A DNA stretch of 64,000 nt, taken from assembly GCA_963790205.1 (NCBI GenBank), contig CAWBNQ010000003.1, positions 800,001-864,000 on the forward strand. The letters run 5' to 3'. Under the pieces are notes generated by a model. That model saw only the letters and a program-made list of their open reading frames with translations. It did no database searches and was not told the origin of the DNA. The translations under genes were made by a program, and so were the position numbers. This DNA comes from Nitrospirota bacterium. GTDB taxonomy: Bacteria; Nitrospirota; UBA9217. Positions 16,795 to 29,987 of this stretch are shown one piece after another. How positions within the stretch are numbered: position 1 is the first letter of the stretch; each line of letters starts with the position of its first letter.

Positions 16795-19700
16795 TTAAAC
16801 AGGGGAACACCTCGCTAAGGTCATGCTGTCGAGAAACAGAAGGTAGCCTTCCACATTCTGCAGGGCAAAGATATCTTTTACGGCTTCGCAATAGATCTCG
16901 ATCTGAGGCCGGTAGTGGTCCTGCCACGATTTGAGGGCGTCATCGTTTTCTATGAGAATGGCCTTATAGTCTATCACCTATCCTCTGTTTCCTGTGATCA
17001 CAACGCGGTCGATTTTTCCGCTCACGAGCGCGTGTCCCTTCCTGGAGAGGAAGGGAAGCTCCGAGTATGCATCAGGCCGGCGCTCGAATATCCATCGGAA
17101 CTCCTCTTTGTTCAGTACGGCGTTCAGGACCGAGGCCGCATCATCGACGAAGGGCTGGCGTGCCTCGTCTCCCAGCGCCAGGATGTCCGGATATTCCATG
17201 ATGATGCTGTTGAGATCATATGCACCGGCCTTGGTGAACTCTTCGAGACAGCGGTGAAGCACGCTTCCGCGCGTGAGCGGCGATACGGCGCGGGTCCCGG
17301 ACCGGAGAAAGAGCTTTTCGATCGATTCTTCTTTCTCCTGGTGGATATAATCGGTCGCTGTTTTCCATGCCGGCGTCTCCGACCGCGGGACCGGAGAAAG
17401 GTTGTCGATGACGATCTTCCTGTCACTATCGGCTGCAGCGGATATTATTTGCCGGTCATTCCGGGCAACGCGAAGGACCTCGCTTGTGGCCCGTATGGAT
17501 ACGCCTGGTGGATAAGCGTAGGTGGTTAGTCCGGCTTCCGCTTCCAGCGGCTTTTCAAAAAGGGGCATCAAGGCGGCTTCGTGAAGATAGCTGAGCCAGG
17601 TATTTTGTTTTATCGGCGTTCTGCCGTCATTGAGCGCGCCGATCATGAACAGATGGTCCCGGGCCCGTGTCATCGCGACATAGAGCAGCCGCTGGTGCTC
17701 GCGCAAAAGCTCGTCGTGCTCCCGCGCCCACAGCTCGTCATAGACCGGGCTTCCCGCGTCCTTGACCGCCATTTGGACGCGGTCGTTCACATCCTCGATG
17801 ATGGCAAGCGGACCGGATGAGAGGGACCTGGGCTGCTGGTTCATGCCGGGCAGGAACACGATGGGATATTCGAGGCCTTTTGCCTTGTGCACGGTCATGA
17901 TGCTGACCGAGCCCTCGAACCCCGGCAGGTTCATGTCCGCCGTGGCCTCCCGCTGCTCCGTCTGACTGATGTTCCTCACCCACTCGACAAAGTCCTGGAG
18001 CGTGGTGTAGCCCCTGCGATCGAACTCGCGCGCCGTGTCGAGGAGTTTGTCGATGTTGAAAATGGCCTGCGGATTTTTCCTGCCGAAGCGGACATAGGCG
18101 CCGGTCTCGTTGACGATCCTGTGCAAAAGATCCGCCAGCGGGACGAGGCCGGCAAGGTCCATCCAATCGCGCAAAAGTTTCCAGTCCTCGGGTCTGCGCT
18201 GCTTCAGGGAATCAACGATATTCGCGCCGCCCTGCAGAAGATCGAAGATGTCTCTGTCCGTAAGCCCGAAGAGCGGGGACTTGAGCGCTGCGGCAAGAGC
18301 GAGCTTGTCGTCCCGGTTCCAGAGGAAGAAGAGCACGTTCATGAGGGCCTGCACCTCGTCCTCCTCGTAAAAGCCGATGCCGCCGATCACGCGATAGGGA
18401 ATGTTCTCCGCCTGGAGCGCGGCTTCGTACTCTTTGAGCTTCGTGCGCGACTGAATGAGGATTGCGCAGTCGCCGTATCCGGCTTCGCGTTCTTTCCATC
18501 CTCCATTGTTCGTTCCGGCATTCCCAGCGCGGGAATCCGGCGGCTTTTCATAAACAGCAGCTCCGCTTGCTATCAGAGTTTTTATCTCCCGCGCCAGCAC
18601 CTCTGCTTCTGTGGGGCCTGAAGGCCCTTCCCCTGACGACGGCGTGAGTTCGATGAGCCGCACGCTTCCTTTGTGATCCTTGCGTTCAACATTGGAAGGT
18701 TTATATGCTTCTCCCCAGAGTGTGGCGAAGACACGGTTCACGGTCTCGATGATCTCGGGCGTTGAACGGAAGTTCTTGTCAAGAGTAAGGATCTCGCGCG
18801 ATTCGGCCGGGAGGTTCTTCACCATCTTCTGTTTGACGTTCTCGATCAGGCGATAGTTCGCCTCGCGAAAGCGGTAGATGGATTGTTTCTCGTCGCCGAC
18901 GACAAAGAGGGTAGGGGCCATGCGCTTGTCAGCTCCCTGGCCGGCGAAGATCTCCTCGGTCAGCTTGTTCAGGATGGCCCACTGGATGTCGCTCGTGTCC
19001 TGGAACTCGTCAACGAGGAAGTGGAGGATCTTGCGGTCGAGCCAGTAGAGGATGTCCGGCGATTCCATTCCCTGGAGCAGGCGGTAGGCGTAGATCTCGA
19101 GGTCGTCGAAGTCGAGGAGTCCTTCCCGGAGCTTCGAGTTTTGATATTTCTTTTCGGCGCGCTGGAACAAACGAAGCAGGCTCAGGGCCTCTTGTCCCGC
19201 GCGCATGCGGGCGTGGAGAGCACGGAACTGGCCGAGCCTCTCCTGGATATCGAAAAAAGTTCTTTCGTAGTCGATGCGGTCTTTTCCAGTAAAGGCTTTT
19301 TTGGTGATGGAGGGGTTCTTGCGGGGATTTCCTTCGTTCGTAAAATAGATCGAGACCAGAGGCTCCGATGCTCTGAAGGCAGGATCTACGTCCTTTGCTT
19401 CTGAAAGCATCAGGTGCTCCTTGCCCATGCTGTCTTTATAATGATCGCCTTCGGAGCGAAGGATACGTTCCATCCGTTGCAGCAATGCCCGCCAATCAAC
19501 GCTCGTGACGAACGCCTTGAGTTCCGATTCAGCATGATCAACACCCATCCCCGTCCGAACGGCACGGAGCAACCCCTCCGGACCGCCGGTGTCGATCTCC
19601 ATGCGCTTGAGCCTGCTTCTGATGGAGAGCAGAAATCCGATCGTCTCAATGAGGGCATCAGTCGTGAAATCCCTGAGCGGAGACATGAGCTCCCGGTCGC

Positions 19701-20097
19701 GGTCGGATTCTTCAAGCGCGTCTTCGATGGCCTTTTGTATCTTATACACCTGGTCTCTGGCATCGAGCACGCCGAAGTCCGGCGGAAGCCCGGCTTCGAG
19801 CGGGTAGCGCTTCAAGAGGTTCATGCAGAAGGAGTGGATCGTCGAGATGCGGAGGTCCTGCCTGCCGCGGATGATCTTCTTGAGCATGTCCTCGGGCAGG
19901 TCGCGCATCACGCGCTCTTTGATCTCCGCCGCGGCCTTGTCCGTGAAGGTGATGGCCACGGCCTGGTCGATGGTGAGCCCGCGATCGTCGAGCACGTCCA
20001 GAAGCGCCAGGTAGCGCTCCTTGAGCGCGCGCGTTTTGCCGGAGCCGGCGGAGGCCGAGAGGTGGATGGATTTGGATGTATTTGAGGCGTTATCCAT
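16795..20097 (-). CDS. addA: AddA-type UvrD helicase-nuclease (in-frame TAG at 16980..16978)
   Basis: ASAGSGKT, DEFQDT, VGDEKQSIYRFR, TVHKAKGLEY, LYVAMTRA; C-terminal IDR...(TAG)VIDYK nuclease motif continues in frame. Confidence 0.9.
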
Positions 20098-20132
20098 AGC
20101 TTTTACCGTCGATCAAACAGTATCAAAAATAC

Positions 20133-20166
20133 CTTGACGAATTGTAATGCAATGCATTGCAATTAC
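20133..20166 (+). promoter_or_regulatory. promoter/operator of the toxin-antitoxin pair
   Basis: ttgacg -35-like hexamer followed by near-perfect palindrome tgtaatgcaatgcattgcaattaca. Confidence 0.55.
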
Positions 20167-20195
20167 ATGCATGAACGTCCATTGAGGAGGCATCT

Positions 20196-20579
20196 ATGCA
20201 ATCGCAACTGACCGTGAGACTGCCGGAAGACCTTGACCGCGAGGTCTCCAGCGCAGCCAAAAGGCTTCGCCTCAAGCGCTCCGACATCGTGCGGCCGGCG
20301 CTGGAACAGTATCTGCGCGAGCCCCATGTTCAGGAGGAGCAGGCCCCCTACGGCAAAGTGAAACATCTCGTCGGCTCGGTCAAGAGCGGTATTCCCGATC
20401 CGGGCGCTTCTCACCGGGAGCACCTCGTGAAGCGGATCAGACGCAATGGATGGCATCCTGCTCGACACCGGGGCCTTTGTCGCGCTCCTGGACCGAAGCG
20501 AGAAGAACCATGCAAGGTGCGTAGCATTCTTCAGCTCCTTCCCTGGCAGAGTATTCACCACCGAACCCGTGCTTACTGA
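20196..20579 (+). CDS. CopG/RHH antitoxin (expected stop near 20450 apparently lost)
   Basis: QLTVRLPEDL...RSDIVR RHH motif; upstream of and overlapping a PIN gene. Confidence 0.8.
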   Translation: MQSQLTVRLPEDLDREVSSAAKRLRLKRSDIVRPALEQYLREPHVQEEQAPYGKVKHLVGSVKSGIPDPGASHREHLVKRIRRNGWHPARHRGLCRAPGPKREEPCKVRSILQLLPWQSIHHRTRAY

Positions 20580-20859
20580 AGCCCTCTGTCTTCTCGGTCC
20601 GTCAATCAAGGCGCAACGCGCCTGTCTGGAGTTCATCCTCAAGGGCGGGGCCACTCTTGTGCCGCAATCAACAGCAAGCCTTGAACGCGCCGCTTCGCTC
20701 ATGACGAAGTATCATGACATCCCCATGGATTTCGCCGACGCGACGCTTGTCGCTCTCGCCGAAGAAACGGGTATCAATGAAGTTTTCACCCTCGACAAAC
20801 GGGGATTTCAATCTTACCGCATCCAAGGAAAGAAACCCTTTACATTACGGCCCCTATAA
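20446..20859 (+). CDS. PIN-domain (VapC-like) toxin
   Basis: ILLDTGAFVAL, TTEPVLTE, MDFADA, FTLD..F motifs. Confidence 0.9.
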   Translation: MDGILLDTGAFVALLDRSEKNHARCVAFFSSFPGRVFTTEPVLTEALCLLGPSIKAQRACLEFILKGGATLVPQSTASLERAASLMTKYHDIPMDFADATLVALAEETGINEVFTLDKRGFQSYRIQGKKPFTLRPL

Positions 20860-20860
20860 A

Positions 20861-22060
20861 TTAAGAATGACCTAAACTCTTATATATCTCTTCGAAATTA
20901 ATACCTCCAATGGTTACGCCCTCATACGCTTCGGGAAGAGATTTTAAAACGCTCTCCAGATGACTTGAGGTTATACCGTGGGCAACGGAAAGTGATGCCT
21001 CCATATAAGCTGCAAGATGGTCACATGCCTTGATAACTTCTCCATCGACTGGAGAGAACCTGTCGTCGTTATATTGAGAATTCAATGAATCAGCAGGCAC
21101 AGCCTTTACCGTGCCATTTTCCAGAATCTTGCTGCTGAACTCGTCCTCGATGAAGTATTTTATCTCTTGGTGCCAGCTTTCAGGCAGGAGCGGAAGGATG
21201 CGTTCTTCTACCTGTTTCTTTTCGATTTCCTTGATCAAGTCTTCGAGTCCTGCAACAGACCTTTTAACCGGAGATACGATGTCCCGCGTCAAGACCTCGG
21301 GTAGATCATGGAAGAGACCAGCGAAGAAATTGTTTCTTACGCGGACATCACAGGCCCCAGCTTCCTCGGCACATATATAAGCAAGCACGGCAACAACCAG
21401 CATGTGCCCCATTACTGACGTGGCAGGAACCCTCGGCGATTTGGTCCACCGTTGCTGGAACCTGAGTTGGCCTACGAGGTCCGTGAAATTTCCGACTTTT
21501 TTTACGAGGCTGATCTTCTGCACCCCGATCATATCTGAATACAACTCGAGATCTTCCTCGATTTGCTGTTTCGTTTCGGTTATTTCATAAAAATGCTTGT
21601 TCAGTGGATAAACGATCCCGAATTCCCAATTCGTCGCTAGGTAGTGGGCCGCCTGGAGTATCCTCCGCTCATCGGGGAAGAGTCGCTCATTAAGTAAGTA
21701 AGCTTCAAAGCGGTCCATGAAGCCGCTGCTGATATCCCTGAGCGTATCGTTAAGCTGGTCGAGCACCCAACGGTTCAGCTTCTCTCCGCTATCGCGCATC
21801 ATCCGATGAAAGACCGGAGGCTTGATATCCGTGAGAACGGTCCGATGGAAAAACTCAAATAAGGCGCCCTCGATCAATACCTTCCAATCAACCGGAGATC
21901 CACCGCTCGTTTCTTCGAACTTCGCAAGAACATATGCATAAAACATTTTGTGTGCTTGTTTGTCTAATTCAGTAAAACCATGAGGTGGTCGGATATGGTC
22001 GTTCCAGCGTTGGATGTGGGCGGATTCGTAGATTAGTTCAAGGATGGCTTTAGTGATCAT
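20861..22060 (-). CDS. HD-domain protein with two YfbR-like repeats
   Basis: IQRWNDH..ELDKQAH..HR..LTDI; second repeat FQQRW..SVMGH..FHDLPE..TRDI..CDHL. Confidence 0.88.
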   Translation of the reverse strand: MITKAILELIYESAHIQRWNDHIRPPHGFTELDKQAHKMFYAYVLAKFEETSGGSPVDWKVLIEGALFEFFHRTVLTDIKPPVFHRMMRDSGEKLNRWVLDQLNDTLRDISSGFMDRFEAYLLNERLFPDERRILQAAHYLATNWEFGIVYPLNKHFYEITETKQQIEEDLELYSDMIGVQKISLVKKVGNFTDLVGQLRFQQRWTKSPRVPATSVMGHMLVVAVLAYICAEEAGACDVRVRNNFFAGLFHDLPEVLTRDIVSPVKRSVAGLEDLIKEIEKKQVEERILPLLPESWHQEIKYFIEDEFSSKILENGTVKAVPADSLNSQYNDDRFSPVDGEVIKACDHLAAYMEASLSVAHGITSSHLESVLKSLPEAYEGVTIGGINFEEIYKSLGHS

Positions 22061-22149
22061 AAGTGATTACGAACTGGTCGACAATAAACATATGATTGTC
22101 GCGCGTCGAAGGAGCGACATATTGCTACGACAGTGGAGCATTATGTTTA

Positions 22150-22638
22150 TCACCTTTTTCTGTTAAGTGGTGGCATTTCTAAGTGTTCATTAAAATAACG
22201 CTTCAGTAGGTCTCTCTCTGCTTTATCCGGTTGTGGATGAACTACATAATTGATAGCAATTGGTCCGTAGGTCTTAATTATATATTCATATCGTTTCCAA
22301 TTGTAGTCATCATCTCCACCTGCCTCCGTTGACGCATATTTGTAATGTCTATCGAACAAGCTAGTTATTGTTTTTCCAATATAGACAACGTCACTCGTGG
22401 ATTTTAGACGCGGTATCGCCCCCTTAGTGGTGGCCCAAACGTACACTACACCTACTGCACTATGTGCTTCATCGGATAAGAATACATTTTTAAACGCAAT
22501 TCGAAAGCTATCTCGGTTGCTACCTTCCAGTACTCCCGGAAGATTTTTTATTTCCCCATCAAGGTTAGCCATTAATTCATCATGATTCATACGTTTCATT
22601 CCTTTCTGCCTTTCTGGCGAAATAGCATTTATCTCCAT
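22150..22638 (-). CDS. GIY-YIG-like nuclease
   Basis: GVVYVW...VVYIGKT..L..R...AE..LL..Y...H...PPLN pattern. Confidence 0.7.
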   Translation of the reverse strand: MEINAISPERQKGMKRMNHDELMANLDGEIKNLPGVLEGSNRDSFRIAFKNVFLSDEAHSAVGVVYVWATTKGAIPRLKSTSDVVYIGKTITSLFDRHYKYASTEAGGDDDYNWKRYEYIIKTYGPIAINYVVHPQPDKAERDLLKRYFNEHLEMPPLNRKR

Positions 22639-22672
22639 GGTTGAGCGCGCAAATAAGGAATATCATTGTTAA

Positions 22673-23059
22673 TTACTTTCGTTTGACCTTTAGTACAACA
22701 ACTAGAGCCAAAACAGGAATTGGCACATCGCCATCGGTTTCCCAGCTATCGGAGGAGCTTCCGTTGTATGGTTTTAATGTTCTGCCATCCCATTCCCAGC
22801 TATCGGAGGAGCTTCCGTTGTATGGCTTTAATGTTCTGCCATCCCATTCCCAACTATCGGAGGAGCTTCCGTTGTATGGTTTTAATGTTCTGCCATCCCA
22901 TTCCCAACTATCGGAGGAGCTTCCGTTGTATGGTTTTAATGTTCTGCCATCCCATTCCCAACTATCGGAGGAGCTTCCGTTGTATGGCTTTAATGTTCTG
23001 CCATCCCATTCCCAGCTATCGGACGAACTTCCATTGTATGGCTTAATAGTTATGCTCAT
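22673..23059 (-). CDS. tandem-repeat protein (18-aa unit WEWDGRTLKPYNGSSSDS) with hydrophobic/basic C-terminal tail
   Basis: aaaagaggtg RBS; co-oriented with the island genes; repeat variants fall at codon third positions. Confidence 0.75.
   Translation of the reverse strand: MSITIKPYNGSSSDSWEWDGRTLKPYNGSSSDSWEWDGRTLKPYNGSSSDSWEWDGRTLKPYNGSSSDSWEWDGRTLKPYNGSSSDSWEWDGRTLKPYNGSSSDSWETDGDVPIPVLALVVVLKVKRK
22739..23047. repeat. 54-bp tandem repeat, 5 full copies plus a partial one
   Basis: Unit ttccca(g/a)ctatcggaggagcttccgttgtatgg(t/c)tttaatgttctgccatccca; no spacers. Confidence 0.97.
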
Positions 23060-23455
23060 CGAATTTCACCTCTTTTATTAAATGGTGGGTTGATTGCGTA
23101 GAATAATGCTAAACTCGACAACTCAATATAAGCGCAGTCTGGTCCACAATAAATGAACGGCTATTCTTTCTCCTTTTATATTTTACTGTCGCTGGATAAG
23201 AGTGATCACCGACAAAAAATTTGTCGCGTAGAATGTGTCAACTGTCTTTTAAAGGCCCTATCGACTAAGCAGAGCTATGATATGACAGAGTGTATATAGG
23301 AAGGATGTACTTGTCAATAATATTTCTGGTTCACAAATCTAATGAGGGCCAATCATTTTTACTCGGGTTAGCTCGTAAGCGCCAAGTTGTTCTCCAGTCT
23401 GATTTTCTCAACTCCTCGACCACTGTTTCCTTCTTGGAATATCTATATCCTCACA

Positions 23456-23824
23456 TCACTTTAACTTCATCGTGCAGATATACACGCTGAGAACAGAGGC
23501 TTCCTGCGAATTATTGGGAAGCCCACCGGCTGTTTTGGCATCATAGATAAAATCAATTATGCCCTTTGACACTTCATAAGATAGCGAAGCCTCTTTGTAT
23601 CCATCAAGAAGCTCTGTCTTGGATGCACCTCTTTTATAATGGTCGAAAATCTGAGATCCATAAAGAGATGCTACATCCTTGCAGATTGAAGCATTCTGAG
23701 GTGTCATCTGGTTGAGATTTTTCTGTGCCTTCCTCGAAAGTTCCTTCGCATCAAATGCTGAAGAGGATGAACAGCCAGCCATTGTTACAAACATCACGAT
23801 AATCAAAAGCGCAAGCTTATTCAT
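23456..23824 (-). CDS. putative lipoprotein
   Basis: MNKLALLIIVMFVTMAGC lipobox; aggag RBS. Confidence 0.75.
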   Translation of the reverse strand: MNKLALLIIVMFVTMAGCSSSSAFDAKELSRKAQKNLNQMTPQNASICKDVASLYGSQIFDHYKRGASKTELLDGYKEASLSYEVSKGIIDFIYDAKTAGGLPNNSQEASVLSVYICTMKLK

Positions 23825-24044
23825 ACGTGTTTTCTCCTGGCATTATTTTTTGTTACAGATATAGATCAATTATGCTTTACTTGCCCACTACATTTTCTTC
23901 AATGAACTTTAACCGCTCGGCCAAGTTTCTCCACGGCCCTCCACACATTTTCGCCATAAAAGGTGTAAGCATGCACTCTGGTTTATAATAACAATTATTG
24001 CACTTGATGGGTTTGTTTTCACCATTTTGAATTATCATTCAAGT

Positions 24045-24077
24045 AGAATAACACCAGCTACTGACAACAGTATGTCA
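24045..24077 (-). promoter_or_regulatory. putative WYL-regulator site/promoter A
   Basis: Palindrome TGACA-N6-TGTCA (24062..24077); minus strand reads TGTCAG-N10-TATTCT. Confidence 0.65.
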
Positions 24078-24455
24078 TACTCGAATAAGGGTTAAAGCTT
24101 TCTTTATCGTATTTAGCAAATATGCATTTTCTGGTGGCTTTATTATAAAATCAAATGCTCCCGTAAGAAATGCCTTCTTGGCCGTTTCCTTGCTCGCATA
24201 GTTCGCAAGTATGATCACCGGCATTCGCGGCCTGAATTCCCTCAACCTCCGTAGCGTTTCTAGCACTTCGAGCTCTGGCATGGTAGCATCCGTGTCTATG
24301 ACCGCTAGGGCGATTTCTTCTCTGGAAATTATTTCGAGTCCTTCCGCTGGGGATGTCGCCGAAATAGCCTGATAGCTCTCAGAGCAAAGAAGTCTGACAA
24401 GAGGCGCGAGAACTTCCTTGTTAAGGGTGATTATTAAAATTTTTTCATTATTCAC
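24075..24455 (-). CDS. atypical single-domain response regulator (receiver)
   Basis: Receiver fold (LAVID, P..PVIIL, GAFDFIIKP) lacking the N-terminal acidic pair; start uncertain (GTG 24455 or ATG 24488). Confidence 0.75.
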   Translation of the reverse strand: MNNEKILIITLNKEVLAPLVRLLCSESYQAISATSPAEGLEIISREEIALAVIDTDATMPELEVLETLRRLREFRPRMPVIILANYASKETAKKAFLTGAFDFIIKPPENAYLLNTIKKALTLIRV

Positions 24456-24462
24456 GAGATAT

Positions 24463-24496
24463 AAAATACCTTCTATTCCTGACAGCATTATGTCAG
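24463..24496 (-). promoter_or_regulatory. putative WYL-regulator site/promoter B
   Basis: Palindrome CTGACA-N6-TGTCAG (24479..24496); minus strand reads TGTCAG-N10-TATTTT. Confidence 0.65.
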
Positions 24497-24532
24497 TGGT
24501 TGAAATTTTTTATTTGAGAGAAAAATCAAGCT

Positions 24533-25513
24533 TCAGCGGCCTTTATTTTTTTTCTGATATAAAGCTGCCATTGATTTGAGTTCGCTTGCCACTTCTTTTC
24601 TGAATTCCGGCGGGGCAAGAACCTCACAGTCTGATCCCCAGTGATAAATCCAACGCCGGATCTCATCGGTGCCCTCAAGTGTGACCTTGAATATAATCGA
24701 CCCGTCTTTCTTGGTTTCTATCTTTTGTGATGGATGCCATTTCCGCCTTGTTATCCAGCGAGACATGCCGTGGCTGAACCTCAATTTTATCTCTACGGGG
24801 CTGCCATATCTGATGATATGCCAGCCTGCTTTGAAGTATTCATCCATGGAGAATCCCTGTGGAATGACATAATTTCTATGGGTTGCCGCGACATTTTGAA
24901 TGCAATCAAGAGCAAATTCCCGGATGCATTTCTTCTCGTGGCAGTAGGCAAGAGTGTACCAGACCCCGTTGCTGTAAAAGAGGCCATACGGATTTATCAT
25001 CCTTTGGGTCATCTTCTGGCTTCCCATAGCGTGGTACGTTATATCCAAGCTGACCTTCTCATCAAGGGCTTTTTGCAACGCGTCAAATTGCTTTTGAACA
25101 GCAGAAAAATCGTCGACGGGGTCTATATCAAACCAGTAATTTGAAGAAACGGTTTTCAGCCTTTGTCCTGTTTTATGTCCAGTCCCAAGCGTGATCTTCT
25201 TCATAAGACCGCTGTAAGCATTCGCAATCCCATGTCCCAGTTTGGAGAGCACAGCTTTGCTTGCCAGCATGGCCCTCGCCTCGTCAGTGGACAAATCAAT
25301 TTTTTTGAGCGAATAGCCTTCGGTAAATCGATAAGAGGCGGCGTCCTCATTAAAATAGACGGGGAAATCAAGAGAAAGCGCTCCGAGGTCCCTGTACACG
25401 GTCCTTTCTGCTACGCCGAAACGTTCGGCAAGACCTTTAGCAGTCACTTTCCCTCCTTTATCTATAAGGCTCAGGATTTCAACCATCCTGTTAACTCGTT
25501 TCATATCAGCCAT
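24533..25513 (-). CDS. HTH-WYL-WCX transcriptional regulator (YafY/PafBC/DriD-like)
   Basis: LAERFGVAERTVYRDL HTH; PYGL...GVWYTLAYC...IREF WYL; WHPSQ...WIYHWG..CEVLAP WCX. Confidence 0.93.
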   Translation of the reverse strand: MADMKRVNRMVEILSLIDKGGKVTAKGLAERFGVAERTVYRDLGALSLDFPVYFNEDAASYRFTEGYSLKKIDLSTDEARAMLASKAVLSKLGHGIANAYSGLMKKITLGTGHKTGQRLKTVSSNYWFDIDPVDDFSAVQKQFDALQKALDEKVSLDITYHAMGSQKMTQRMINPYGLFYSNGVWYTLAYCHEKKCIREFALDCIQNVAATHRNYVIPQGFSMDEYFKAGWHIIRYGSPVEIKLRFSHGMSRWITRRKWHPSQKIETKKDGSIIFKVTLEGTDEIRRWIYHWGSDCEVLAPPEFRKEVASELKSMAALYQKKNKGR

Positions 25514-25522
25514 GGATACTCC

Positions 25523-28500
25523 TCATTTTCCCTGTGCATCATCCGTGGAGGCCGCTCCATCACACATCACCTCATTCGGGCAATAACGGCATTTGTTCTC
25601 GTCCTGCGGCGTTGAGGTGAAATTGCCCGCCAGGATGGCCTCGATTGCCTTACGGGCCTTGTCCATGCTCTGATTCAGGATCGTCTCGAATTCATCTGTG
25701 CTTTTGGGGCTTGCGTTGGGCTTGGACGAGGGGTGATCGTTCCGCGCTTCCTTGTTAAAGAGCACAACGTCCCGGGCGCCTGCCCGGGTCTTGCCCGCGA
25801 GATCGTAATACGCGAGGCCTATCGGTTTCTTCAATGCCGGACCCTTGGCGAGCAATGCCCGCTGTGACATGACCGCATAGACGGGGAGTTGAAAAATGTC
25901 CTGGTCAACGTTCATTTTCGGCAAAGGATATTTGCCCGTCTTGTAGTCTACGATGATGAAGTTCCCGTTCTCGTCCACGTCGATTCGGTCTATCCTGGCC
26001 GAGAGTTCGACTTCCTCGCCGTTCGAAAGAAGAAGCGGATAACGCTCGATCTTTTGTTCAAGGTAGGCCGGACGGAATCCTTGTTTCCAGAATTTCTCTT
26101 CCGCATCAAGGAATCGCTCAGCCATGACGGTCAGGAACAGCTCTTTCTCCCGCCGGTTGCGGAAGGTGTCGGCCTCGGGATCGAAGGCTGAGTCAGCGAG
26201 TTTTCGTAAGATCGTCCGCGCCTCATCCCGGGCCGCTCTCGTGACGGGCCTGGTCCAGGAAAGATAGAAGTTCCGGAGGATCGCGTGCACTTTGCTGCCG
26301 CGGGCCATGGGCGAAATGTCTTCGGTCGGCTCTTCGAGCGGTTCGATGCGGAGAACGTATTTTACGTAATAATCGTAGGGGCACTTGAGGTAATCGTCCA
26401 GCTCGGTGACCCGGAATTCCCGTTTCACGAACGGCGTGTTACCCTGAGCGCGTTCTTCAGGCTTATAGTCGAGGGCTGATCTGATCCCGGACACGCCTTC
26501 GATGTTCGAATTCAGGATCTCATCGAGCCCTTTGATGCTCCCCGCAAGACCGATCGCCTTTGCCAGTTCAGGAACGCTGCGACTGTCCTCGATCTTTAAA
26601 CTGAACTGAATACCGGAGGTCTTCCCGATCCCGCGATTCAGCAGGCCCGCCTCCTTGAGCGGGGTCAGCTCCTCCAGAAAGGGCGACGGCACCACGGGCC
26701 TGTCGCCCTCGTTCTCCGGCCAGGTCAGCGTGATAGTATCAGCCGAGAGCAGGAGACGGTAAAAATGATAGGCTGCGTTCAGGCGCGCCCGCTCAAGCGT
26801 GCGCACGCCCATGGCCTCGAGCGTCTGCTCGGGAAGGAAGATGTTCTGCGGCAGGCGTTGGGGAAACTTGCCGTCTGCAAGCCCGCCGAGGTAGATCTCC
26901 TGCCAGGGAGTGCCCAGGCTTTCCTCGAGCCCCAGGATCTGCACGCCCCCTTCGTCCTCGGGCGGCACCTGGAAGCGGGTGTGCATGAAGGTCTTCTTCA
27001 AAAGGAAGAGCCATTCGTGGAACGTATGCGTATAGCCGGCGAAAAGGCTCCCTGCCCGGGCAAGCGACCCCAGCGTTTCGATCAGTTTCCGGTAGGCCTG
27101 GAGATTGACATTGAGGGGGCCGTGAATTGCCGCGACCCTGGCGCCGAGGCCTGACCAGGCAATGAGAACGTCGAGGCGCTTCATCCAGATATTGAGCGGC
27201 GCAGTATCCTGTGAAGAAAAAGGTTCGAGTGCTGCAAAGAGCTCGTTCAATGGTCCGGTCAGTACGTCGGAAGCGCTTTCATCAAGCTTGTGGAGTTTAA
27301 GCGCTGCAAGGAGTTTCTGCCTGCCGCCAATAATGCGCCTGTCCCGCATGAGCCGGTCGAGCGCCGGAGCGATCGTCCGGTTTTCGGCGAACTTCAAAAA
27401 AGGAGAACTAAAGACGCGCAGGAGCGACGGGCCGGAGAAATCTTCCTGGCATGCGCGAAGGAGCGAGACCACGGCAATGGCAACCGCCGAGGTGCTGAGC
27501 TGCCTGCCAAGCGCGCGGTTGTAGGGGATGCCGTAGTCGTTGAATATCTCTTCCACGAGCGGGCCGTATTCGTCGAGCGCGGGAAAGGCAATGAGGATCG
27601 AGTCCGCCAATGTGCCGGTTTTGAGCGATCTCTTCACCTCGCCGGCGATGAGCGTAACCTCTTCACGGGTATTCACGGCTGAGAGCAGATTGATCGTCTT
27701 TGCGAACGATGAAGGTTGGGGAGCTTTGTCCGCTATCTCGGAAAAAGGCCTGTCCGAAAACAGGGCCGAGGCAAGGAACAGCTGCTCGTCATCCGCGTCA
27801 ACTCCCGCCTCCTTCGGAAGGACCCCGATACTGACAAGAGAATCGTGAACAATCCTGAGGGGATGATATTCACCTGCACGTTTAAGCAGGTCTGATGAGG
27901 GAACGTTAACGAGCCATGTGCAGTTTCCGCAGTCCGCCACTTTTTTAAGAATGTCCGCTTCGAGCGGGCCGATGTCCTGAATGCCGTCGATGATGATCGT
28001 GCGATAGTGCGCCAGCCAGACGGGATCGAAGCGGTCGCGAAGGTATGCGCGCATCCCCGCGGGATCGGTAAGGTTGCCCTCTTTTAGAGCGTTTTGATAG
28101 CGGGTATACACGTCAAGGAGCAGCCGGACTTGCGGTTTGTCGAAAGAATCCGAACCTTGTATCTTTACCGAGAGGTCGTCGGGGTTTATGCCGGCGCCCG
28201 AAAGCTGCTCGATCATTGTTGCCACTGCCGAGGTGAGCGACGGCGCGAGCAGGTCGGGACTGAGAGGGAATGAGGAGAAATTGCTCAGGCGTTCTTTCAC
28301 GATGCCTTCGAGAAGGACCAGCCTGCTGTTCTCGTCCATCAGAAGGGGCCCGTTGAGACGGCCATAGAGCAGCTGAAGGAACTGGTGGAGCGTCTGGACC
28401 TCGGGCTGGACCAGCGCGGCGGACCCTCTGCGCTCCGCGAATTCCAGGAACAGCCTGCCGTACATCCGCTTCATGCGCGAAGAGGGCACGAGGATTAGAA

Positions 28501-28612
28501 CGTCGTTATACAGGAAGGGCGCAGCCGGCCGCGAAGACAGAACATCTTCAAGCACGCGCTTTTTTTCTTCCCAGCCGGCGCTTCCATATGGCAGAACGAG
28601 CGCTTTCAACAT
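25523..28612 (-). CDS. addB: AddB-type inactive helicase / PD-(D/E)XK nuclease with Fe-S cysteines
   Basis: CPYDYY, RGSKVH, RIDRID..IIVDYKTG, QLPVY, C-terminal CRYC...C. Confidence 0.88.
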   Translation of the reverse strand: MLKALVLPYGSAGWEEKKRVLEDVLSSRPAAPFLYNDVLILVPSSRMKRMYGRLFLEFAERRGSAALVQPEVQTLHQFLQLLYGRLNGPLLMDENSRLVLLEGIVKERLSNFSSFPLSPDLLAPSLTSAVATMIEQLSGAGINPDDLSVKIQGSDSFDKPQVRLLLDVYTRYQNALKEGNLTDPAGMRAYLRDRFDPVWLAHYRTIIIDGIQDIGPLEADILKKVADCGNCTWLVNVPSSDLLKRAGEYHPLRIVHDSLVSIGVLPKEAGVDADDEQLFLASALFSDRPFSEIADKAPQPSSFAKTINLLSAVNTREEVTLIAGEVKRSLKTGTLADSILIAFPALDEYGPLVEEIFNDYGIPYNRALGRQLSTSAVAIAVVSLLRACQEDFSGPSLLRVFSSPFLKFAENRTIAPALDRLMRDRRIIGGRQKLLAALKLHKLDESASDVLTGPLNELFAALEPFSSQDTAPLNIWMKRLDVLIAWSGLGARVAAIHGPLNVNLQAYRKLIETLGSLARAGSLFAGYTHTFHEWLFLLKKTFMHTRFQVPPEDEGGVQILGLEESLGTPWQEIYLGGLADGKFPQRLPQNIFLPEQTLEAMGVRTLERARLNAAYHFYRLLLSADTITLTWPENEGDRPVVPSPFLEELTPLKEAGLLNRGIGKTSGIQFSLKIEDSRSVPELAKAIGLAGSIKGLDEILNSNIEGVSGIRSALDYKPEERAQGNTPFVKREFRVTELDDYLKCPYDYYVKYVLRIEPLEEPTEDISPMARGSKVHAILRNFYLSWTRPVTRAARDEARTILRKLADSAFDPEADTFRNRREKELFLTVMAERFLDAEEKFWKQGFRPAYLEQKIERYPLLLSNGEEVELSARIDRIDVDENGNFIIVDYKTGKYPLPKMNVDQDIFQLPVYAVMSQRALLAKGPALKKPIGLAYYDLAGKTRAGARDVVLFNKEARNDHPSSKPNASPKSTDEFETILNQSMDKARKAIEAILAGNFTSTPQDENKCRYCPNEVMCDGAASTDDAQGK

Positions 28613-28643
28613 TGCGGCATGATTATGCCACAAGTAAAAATTA

Positions 28644-29911: not shown

Positions 29912-29987
29912 GCGGGCGTAGCTCAGCTGGTAGAGTGCAAGCTTCCCAAGCTTGATGTCGCGGGTTCGAGCCCCGTCGCCCGCTCCA
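29912..29987 (+). tRNA. tRNA-Gly (CCC)
   Basis: 76-nt cloverleaf GCGGGCG...CGCCCGCTCCA; anticodon loop TTCCCAA; GGTTCGA T-arm. Confidence 0.97.

What the first reader, a model, noticed from the sequence alone, without database searches (positions are those of the whole stretch)
20100..25520. WYL-led accessory island between addB and addA: candidate AddAB-coupled ssDNA-sensing damage/defence system
Seen: addB and addA, usually adjacent, are about 5.4 kb apart, and the intervening DNA is visibly AT-richer. An HTH-WYL-WCX gene starts 10 nt after the addB stop. It is followed on the same strand by an atypical receiver, a lipoprotein, an 18-aa repeat protein, a GIY-YIG-like nuclease and a double-HD protein; an RHH-PIN pair sits on the other strand. 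Established: WYL regulators of the PafBC and DriD type bind ssDNA and drive LexA-independent damage responses, and BrxR and CapW regulate anti-phage islands. Inference: ssDNA made by AddAB activates the co-transcribed WYL protein, which switches on this cargo. I do not recognise the gene set as a named system.
Basis: partly seen in the sequence, partly recalled or inferred. Interest (0 to 1): 0.85.

Follow-up and report, generated by a model that had tools for sequence, protein, structure and literature searches.

The report
WYL switch with leaderless island promoters

Summary
The island and gene list are real. The AddAB-coupled reading is not supported. The addB-addA spacer carries other inserts in 7 of 32 family genomes and never this WYL. 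Close WYL relatives sit at other loci with other cargo.

What holds is local WYL control. Two palindromic boxes (TGACA-N6-TGTCA, 11 nt before a TAnnnT -10, PafBC geometry) lie at 24480 and 24062. They are the only strong sites in the 4.3-Mb genome. The box recurs beside WYL relatives (73 palindromes in 86 partly redundant loci, 1.8 in shuffles) and never in 588 kb of addAB loci. Each box sits before a likely leaderless start: the receiver and an unannotated 53-aa Cys-rich ORF, whose three family homologues have the same layout.

The other cargo has no box of its own, and no cargo matches PADLOC. The clade lacks both arginines PafB needs for ssDNA binding, so the signal is open. The repeat protein is a predicted beta-flower. 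Verdict: a new variant of the DriD/SiwR/DdaA-type local WYL regulon.

The parts
25523..28633 (-). addB-like helicase/nuclease subunit (core gene; left border; probable read-through source for WYL)
   Evidence: single orthologue in 34 of 36 family genomes
24533..25513 (-). HTH-WYL-WCX regulator, 326 aa, 9 nt after the addB stop; clade with Ala201/Cys204 in place of the ssDNA-binding Arg pair
24463..24496 (-). Box 1: palindrome TGACA-N6-TGTCA (24480-24495) plus -10 TATTTT (24468-24463)
   Evidence: 30.0 bits
24075..24455 (-). Atypical receiver-only protein; likely true start GTG 24455, 7 nt after the -10 (leaderless); the longer ORF from 24488 overlaps box 1
24045..24077 (-). Box 2: palindrome (24062-24077) plus -10 TATTCT (24050-24045)
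   Evidence: 32.3 bits
23877..24038 (-). Unannotated 53-aa four-Cys protein (CxxC...C...CxGP); ATG 6 nt after the -10 (leaderless)
   Evidence: a related strain's contig matches down to 23877, its stop
23456..23824 (-). Predicted lipoprotein, no family; may be read through from box 2
22673..23059 (-). 18-aa repeat protein, predicted sixfold beta-flower (12 short strands plus C-terminal hydrophobic helix)
22150..22638 (-). GIY-YIG-like nuclease (homologues start at M17)
20861..22060 (-). HD-domain protein (YfbR/HD_3-like C-terminal half, degenerate N-terminal copy)
20196..20859 (+). RHH antitoxin and PIN/VapC toxin; host-like GC; separate insertion layer also present alone in G007 and G020
16795..20097 (-). 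addA-like helicase/nuclease (core gene; right border) with an in-frame TAG at 16978-16980 just before the nuclease DYK motif

Best explanation
This is a layered low-GC island in the addB-addA spacer, led by an HTH-WYL-WCX protein that likely binds the two palindromic boxes and activates two likely leaderless promoters for the atypical receiver and a 53-aa cysteine-rich protein, while its position between addB and addA is likely an incidental insertion. Shown: the gene content, the boxes, their fixed 11-nt spacing to a -10 with no -35 at the canonical distance, their recurrence beside WYL relatives and their rarity elsewhere. Inferred: WYL is made constitutively by read-through from addB; it binds as a homodimer through Arg37/Arg41; it activates by PafBC/SiwR-like recognition of the -26 position; lipoprotein, beta-flower, GIY-YIG and HD genes are replaceable passengers reached, if at all, by read-through. 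The most likely trigger is still ssDNA from DNA damage or incoming DNA (about 55%). Any resection nuclease in the cell could supply it, so no linkage to addAB is needed.
For: Boxes: 2 of the genome's 7 N6 palindromes and 2 of 3 palindrome-plus--10 sites lie within 500 nt after WYL; 2 matches versus 0.10 in window shuffles. In 86 WYL-clade loci (688 kb, partly redundant): 73 palindromes, 57 with a -10 on the WYL strand and 3 on the other, shuffles mean 1.8 (max 4), other spacer lengths 0-3; 45 of 58 unique sites have TAnnnT at exactly 11 nt. A matrix built without window sites scores the two island sites 32.3 and 30.0 and the next genomic site 15.6. Out-of-sample test: three family homologues of the 53-aa ORF, found by protein search alone, all have box, -10 and ATG 6 nt later (the G083 copy has an N5 spacer and an early stop). 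G031 has WYL, boxes, the small ORF and an atypical receiver together; G159 has parAB-WYL-box-lipoproteins-small ORF. The 3' half equals the PafBC motif tGTCgg(N10)tA(N3)T (PMC8635444). The HTH arginines are kept (R37 45 of 52, R41 52 of 52). Nearest fold is DriD (E 1.9e-15). Hotspot: 7 of 32 family spacers carry other inserts, and upstream neighbours of WYL relatives vary.
Against: No binding or expression data. Loci are kin and partly duplicated, so counts overstate independence. 41 of 86 clade loci have no exact palindrome (many are short contigs). The motif was first spotted in this window. Leaderless starts are not general: only 5 of 80 sites (2 of them the window's own) have a 40+ aa ORF starting 5-8 nt after the -10. 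The positions matching PafB R211/R214, needed for ssDNA binding (PMC11804915), are Ala in 52 of 52 and Cys in 50 of 52. Two lineages of the clade lie directly upstream of AddA/AddB-like pairs, which fits a real tie to resection enzymes. Five small-ORF matches in four genomes of another family lack a box directly upstream.
Confidence: 0.7

Rival explanations
1. One reading: a dedicated AddAB-coupled ssDNA-sensing damage or defence system, selected to sit between addB and addA with this gene set.
For: 9-nt coupling to addB. A related strain in runs X1/X2 keeps addB-WYL-receiver-small ORF on one contig and HD-RHH-addA on another. Two other lineages (L142/L143/L128 and L171/L182/L194) have this WYL clade upstream of AddA/AddB-like genes. 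RecBCD products activate CapW (PMC11662680).
Against: 0 of 38 relatives' addB-addA stretches hold WYL or cargo. All 6 close orthologues among 63 family genomes lie elsewhere. The AddAB-like neighbours are only 22-24% identical to the window's and in reverse order. No box at addA or addB. In the related strain the HD contig joins across the beta-flower and GIY-YIG genes (41-nt side, letters between unknown). No PADLOC hit for any cargo.
Confidence: 0.1
2. Same boxes, but WYL is a BrxR/CapW-type repressor that is released by a ligand.
For: The palindrome covers about -40 to -23, where a dimer could block polymerase. Many sites have an extended -10 TG (T 59 of 81, G 49 of 81) that needs no -35.
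Against: No -35 at the canonical distance. Spacing is identical to the activator PafBC, and SiwR activates from the same position. Fold and sequence are closer to DriD/PafBC than to BrxR/CapW.
Confidence: 0.12
3. The box is not a WYL operator but a mobile-element end or a site for another regulator that travels with these islands.
For: TG...CA inverted ends are common in mobile elements (recalled). Integrase-like genes lie near several loci (family identified by eye).
Against: [quoted passage not shown]
Confidence: 0.08

Closest known systems
SiwR (Mycobacterium smegmatis; PMC10693628)
   Same: Single homodimeric HTH-WYL-WCX protein, palindrome between -35 and -10, local regulon of adjacent genes
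   Different: SiwR needs R204/R207, which are Ala/Cys here. Targets differ (dinB-like genes versus a receiver and a small Cys protein). The SiwR palindrome sequence itself was not seen in the passages read.
PafBC (PMC8635444, PMC11804915)
   Same: 3' half of the promoter matches tGTCgg(N10)tA(N3)T exactly; i,i+4 HTH arginines kept
   Different: PafBC is a heterodimer with a half-site and about 150 targets including recA. Here there is one WYL gene, a full palindrome and two sites per genome.
DriD (Caulobacter) and DdaA (Moraxellaceae) (PMC9186387, PMC12392091, PMC13010146)
   Same: Nearest fold is DriD. Related palindromes (CGAC-N7-GTCG; CGWCA-N5-TGWCG). Pocket Tyr/Arg/aromatic residues kept. 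DdaA also has the first Arg replaced by Ala.
   Different: Spacer is N6 with a fixed tie to the -10. DriD and DdaA control recA; here recA has no box and the genome encodes LexA. The second Arg is also lost.
BrxR / CapW island regulators (PMC11662680 passages; PMC9122601 listing only)
   Same: WYL regulator heading an accessory island
   Different: They repress known defence systems. Here no cargo matches PADLOC and the geometry points to activation.
Beta-flower fold (PMC10584680)
   Same: Predicted 12 short strands in sixfold hairpins, ExxG turn, central C-terminal hydrophobic helix, Tubby-like structural matches
   Different: Near-perfect DNA-level repeats; no hit to the Pfam beta-flower models in this library copy at E<=1

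Membership tests
Homodimeric WYL activators (DriD/SiwR/DdaA type) | wHTH-WYL-WCX architecture | tested here: met
   Pfam HTH_11, WYL and WCX above cut-off; Foldseek best hit DriD
Homodimeric WYL activators (DriD/SiwR/DdaA type) | Two HTH arginines (i, i+4) that read GTC | tested here: met
   R37 in 45 of 52, R41 in 52 of 52
Homodimeric WYL activators (DriD/SiwR/DdaA type) | Palindromic operator in target promoters | tested here: met
   Sequence-level only:
Homodimeric WYL activators (DriD/SiwR/DdaA type) | ssDNA pocket residues matching DriD Y168, R178, Y192, R204, W206 | tested here: met
   Y160, R171, Y186 in 52 of 52; R198 51 of 52; F200 50 of 52. DriD S172, K202, Y240 and R288 equivalents are not conserved.
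Homodimeric WYL activators (DriD/SiwR/DdaA type) | Arg pair (PafB R211/R214, SiwR R204/R207) needed for ssDNA binding | tested here: not met
   Ala in 52 of 52 and Cys in 50 of 52. Among 146 neighbouring representatives the second position is Arg in 120. Mapping inferred from the HMMER alignment.
Homodimeric WYL activators (DriD/SiwR/DdaA type) | ssDNA- or damage-dependent activation | not testable with these tools
   Needs binding and reporter assays
PafBC | Two adjacent WYL genes forming a heterodimer | tested here: not met
   One tblastn WYL match in the genome
PafBC | TGTC-g-g(N10)TA(N3)T promoter geometry | tested here: met
   45 of 58 unique sites at exactly that spacing
PafBC / DriD / DdaA global damage regulon | Operator at recA and other repair genes | tested here: not met
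   No site above 9.3 bits near recA or lexA; only two strong sites in a 98%-complete genome
BrxR/CapW defence-island regulators | Adjacent recognised defence system | tested here: not met
   0 of 7 non-WYL island proteins scanned hit PADLOC 2.0 at E<=0.01; the 53-aa ORF was not scanned
GIY-YIG nucleases | Conserved Tyr, YIG, Arg, Glu, Asn catalytic set | tested here: met
   Invariant in 16 of 16 (residue roles recalled); Pfam hits only sub-threshold
Beta-flower / Tubby clan | 12-strand hairpin barrel with central C-terminal helix | tested here: met
   Prediction only: AF2 pLDDT 86, pTM 0.77, five models 56-86; best match At5g01750 Z 6.5, rmsd 5.0, 106 aligned, a middling Z
Beta-flower / Tubby clan | Match to Pfam PF21784-PF21786 | tested here: inconclusive
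   No such row for 8 members at E<=1; whether the library copy holds these models was not checked

The most novel reading that the evidence does not exclude
A Nitrospirota-centred clade of WYL activators has traded the ssDNA-gripping arginine for a cysteine and no longer senses ssDNA but a redox, metal or other small signal. It docks behind housekeeping operons for constitutive expression and switches on leaderless four-cysteine microproteins, atypical receivers and AAA+ ATPases as a portable stress regulon.
Probability: 0.2. Interest if true: 0.7.

Novelty: new variant of a known kind. Interest (0 to 1): 0.42.

Why it matters
It gives a precise, testable operator-promoter for a WYL clade of uncultured Nitrospirota, Nitrospinota and Deltaproteobacteria. 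The layout joins a DriD-like palindrome to exact PafBC -26 geometry, which makes it a candidate for testing whether sigma adaptation works from a homodimer outside Actinobacteria. The box also marks target genes that annotation misses, such as the 53-aa cysteine protein. The clade-wide loss of the ssDNA-binding arginine pair is a natural experiment on what WYL domains can sense.

Tried and rejected
Single-protein scan of genome contigs with WYL found nothing; the alignment scan worked.

My first guess of an N7 spacer was wrong; N6 is the signal. The CGACA-N7-TGTCG site at 23210 and the CGACA/TGTCG repeats upstream of HD score at background and are not counted. No target-site duplication, att repeat or significant sigma-70/terminator excess was found in the island.

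No RNA holder was listed. The contigs laid do not settle whether the addA TAG is real (table cut). In one search no difference was listed in 24030-24078 against 40 in the next 257 nt, but 25 rows and 5 end differences were not shown, so I give it little weight.

No close WYL relative on plasmids (best 28%). Foldseek found nothing significant for the repeat protein, and its Alpha-amy_C_pro hit is treated as a repeat artefact. No Pfam family for the 53-aa ORF. The lipoprotein got no homologue search beyond ESM Atlas, family relatives' loci and WYL loci.

Literature searches for this motif or clade returned nothing relevant, but the library is open-access only and I read no supplements, where motif tables could list this box. 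L191 (37% partial match) was moved from the clade to the distant set before counting.
Full report
Observation. addB (25523-28633) and addA (start 20097) lie on the minus strand 5425 nt apart. The interval is 45.5% GC against about 55% for the genome; 1.8% of 4272 windows are as low. WYL starts 9 nt after the addB stop. RHH-PIN has host-like GC (57.8%). The HD protein has one canonical HD half; its halves align only at E=0.62. None of the 7 non-WYL island proteins scanned hits PADLOC. Record titles of the closest WYL homologues say Nitrospirota.

The site is an insertion hotspot. I fetched the addB region of 34 family and 6 other genomes; 38 of these 40 stretches held both genes. Of 32 family spacers, 25 are 301 nt or shorter and 7 carry inserts. 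Two hold the same RHH-PIN pair alone, three hold REP-associated tyrosine transposase-like genes (below cut-off), one holds a probable remnant of that kind (by eye), and one holds a FIST protein plus a histidine kinase. None holds WYL, lipoprotein, repeat, GIY-YIG or HD genes. Contigs in runs X1/X2 show both an empty site (joint 20064-25633) and a related strain, about 89% identical, with addB-WYL-receiver on one contig down to 23877. On that strain's other contig HD, RHH and the addA start are kept, the PIN gene is replaced and a joint crosses the repeat and GIY-YIG genes (short side, letters between unknown). So the island is layered and its cargo turns over.

The WYL gene moves. Six of 63 family genomes have a match at 54-65% identity (one frameshifted, one a fragment), all away from addAB. 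Alignment-based scans gave 113 loci. Upstream neighbours vary and include genes I read as pabB-, hypD-, pcrA- and rho-like (hypD by Pfam, the others by eye). The repeat, GIY-YIG and lipoprotein genes occur in 0 of 113 loci. HD homologues occur in 4 loci (two clusters, 43-51% identical), all in the nearest sub-clade.

The operator-promoter. Two palindromes TGACA-N6-TGTCA lie at 24480 and 24062, each followed on the gene strand by 11 nt and TAnnnT. The genome has 7 such palindromes and 3 with the -10; two of each are here (2 versus 0.10 by shuffle). In 86 clade loci (37% identity or more, 688 kb, 60 WYL clusters at 90%, some contigs fetched twice) there are 73 palindromes in 45 loci, 57 with a forward -10 and 3 reverse. 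Shuffles give 1.8, other spacers 0-3, and 27 distant-WYL loci give 2 with no -10. Of 58 unique sites, 45 have the -10 at exactly 11 nt. The 588 kb of addAB loci give 0. A matrix from 81 non-window sites scores the island sites 32.3 and 30.0, the next site 15.6, and the weakest training site 21.2. recA and a LexA above cut-off exist and have no site. The regulon here is therefore local. The 3' half equals the PafBC motif (PMC8635444, passages). SiwR activates from a palindrome at the same position (PMC10693628, passages and section 12). DdaA and DriD bind related palindromes with other spacers (PMC12392091 and PMC13010146, passages).

Targets. Box 1 has a GTG 7 nt after its -10 that opens the receiver at 24455. 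Box 2 has an ATG 6 nt after its -10 that opens an unannotated 53-aa four-cysteine ORF, 23877-24038. A protein search of 301 phylum genomes found this ORF in 7 others. All three family copies have box, -10 and ATG 6 nt later; two are intact and one has an N5 spacer and an early stop. The five matches in four genomes of another family have no box directly upstream. In G031 the small ORF is followed by another atypical receiver near a more distant WYL with boxes. In G159 the order is parA-parB-WYL-box-two lipoproteins-small ORF (parAB and lipoproteins by eye). These more distant WYLs keep the second arginine, so the box is wider than the clade. Leaderless starts are a minority overall (5 of 80 sites). 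Across the clade the commonest box-led gene is an AAA+ ATPase (21 times, redundant loci included). Others include metallo-beta-lactamase-fold, DUF2779, DnaB-like and M50 peptidase genes. PADLOC hits among 29 representatives are generic domain matches. This window has no AAA gene.

The sensor. The model's nearest solved structure is DriD. In 52 aligned homologues R37/R41 (DNA reading) and Y160, R171, Y186, R198 and F200 (DriD pocket; PMC9186387 passages and section 10) are kept. The positions aligned to the FRxxR arginines are Ala (52 of 52) and Cys (50 of 52). In PafB these arginines are required for ssDNA binding (PMC11804915, passages). Among 146 neighbouring representatives the first is often Ala (83) but the second is Arg in 120. 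The Ala/Cys form marks a 53-leaf clade with support 0.95 (sequences under 281 aa left out). DdaA lacks the first arginine yet responds to damage, so ssDNA remains the likelier trigger, at about even odds or slightly better. RecBCD products activate CapW in trans (PMC11662680, passages), so ssDNA sensing needs no gene linkage to addAB.

Passengers. The repeat protein is predicted as 12 short strands plus a hydrophobic C-terminal helix. Its best structural match is the Tubby-like At5g01750 (Z 6.5, rmsd 5.0), which fits the sixfold beta-flower described in PMC10584680 (passages); this is a lead, not proof. The GIY-YIG protein keeps a full catalytic set.

Verdict. WYL control of two island genes is well supported by sequence, AddAB coupling and a fixed gene set are not, and the signal and any defence role are untested. 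Six paper searches found no description of this box or clade; supplements were not read. Four earlier notes of this scan describe WYL plus box plus AAA ATPase modules in other lineages, so the general theme recurs. New variant of a known kind; interest 0.42.

Noticed in passing
window 16978-16980 (- strand): addA has an in-frame TAG just before the nuclease DYK motif; 31 aligned relatives have a residue there, mostly Phe or Tyr, and the frame continues to 16795. A real nuclease-truncated allele or an assembly error.
   Followed up: partly
window 20196-20579 (+): The RHH antitoxin has TGG where G007 and G020 have a stop, extending it about 42 aa over the PIN gene.
   Followed up: partly
window 22673-23059 (-): Near-perfect 54-nt repeats encode a predicted beta-flower; the 7 homologues have fewer or more divergent repeat units, some with signal-like N-termini.
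   Followed up: partly
L114:9757-12006, L107:2744-4645, L125:9288-10475, L130:8214-9578: Several AAA+ ATPase subfamilies are the commonest genes directly behind the box across the WYL clade.
   Followed up: partly
L142:3268-8948; L171:7648-12494: Distant AddA-like/AddB-like pairs directly downstream of clade WYL genes in two lineages; unclear whether they are the hosts' core pair or island-borne.
   Followed up: partly
L091:7632-9578; L096:9518-11507; L095:3120-4004: A metallo-beta-lactamase-fold gene, twice paired with an MmcB-like/PD-(D/E)XK-like gene, recurs behind the box.
   Followed up: partly
L044, L045, L054, L058 (addB-addA spacer): REP-associated tyrosine transposase-like genes repeatedly occupy the addB-addA spacer in this family.
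   Followed up: partly
L093/L101, just after the WYL stop: An orthologue with Gln at the first HTH arginine has a degenerate box (TAACA-N6-TGTAA) and a duplicated WYL C-terminal fragment: possible co-variation or decay.
   Followed up: no
window 22060-22140 and 23170-23240: Clusters of CGACA/TGTCG inverted repeats upstream of HD and the repeat gene; they score at background for the WYL box and could be decayed boxes or another regulator's sites.
   Followed up: partly
window 29912-29987: tRNA-Gly(CCC) about 4.4 kb from the island; the genome also has two tRNA-Sec genes.
   Followed up: no
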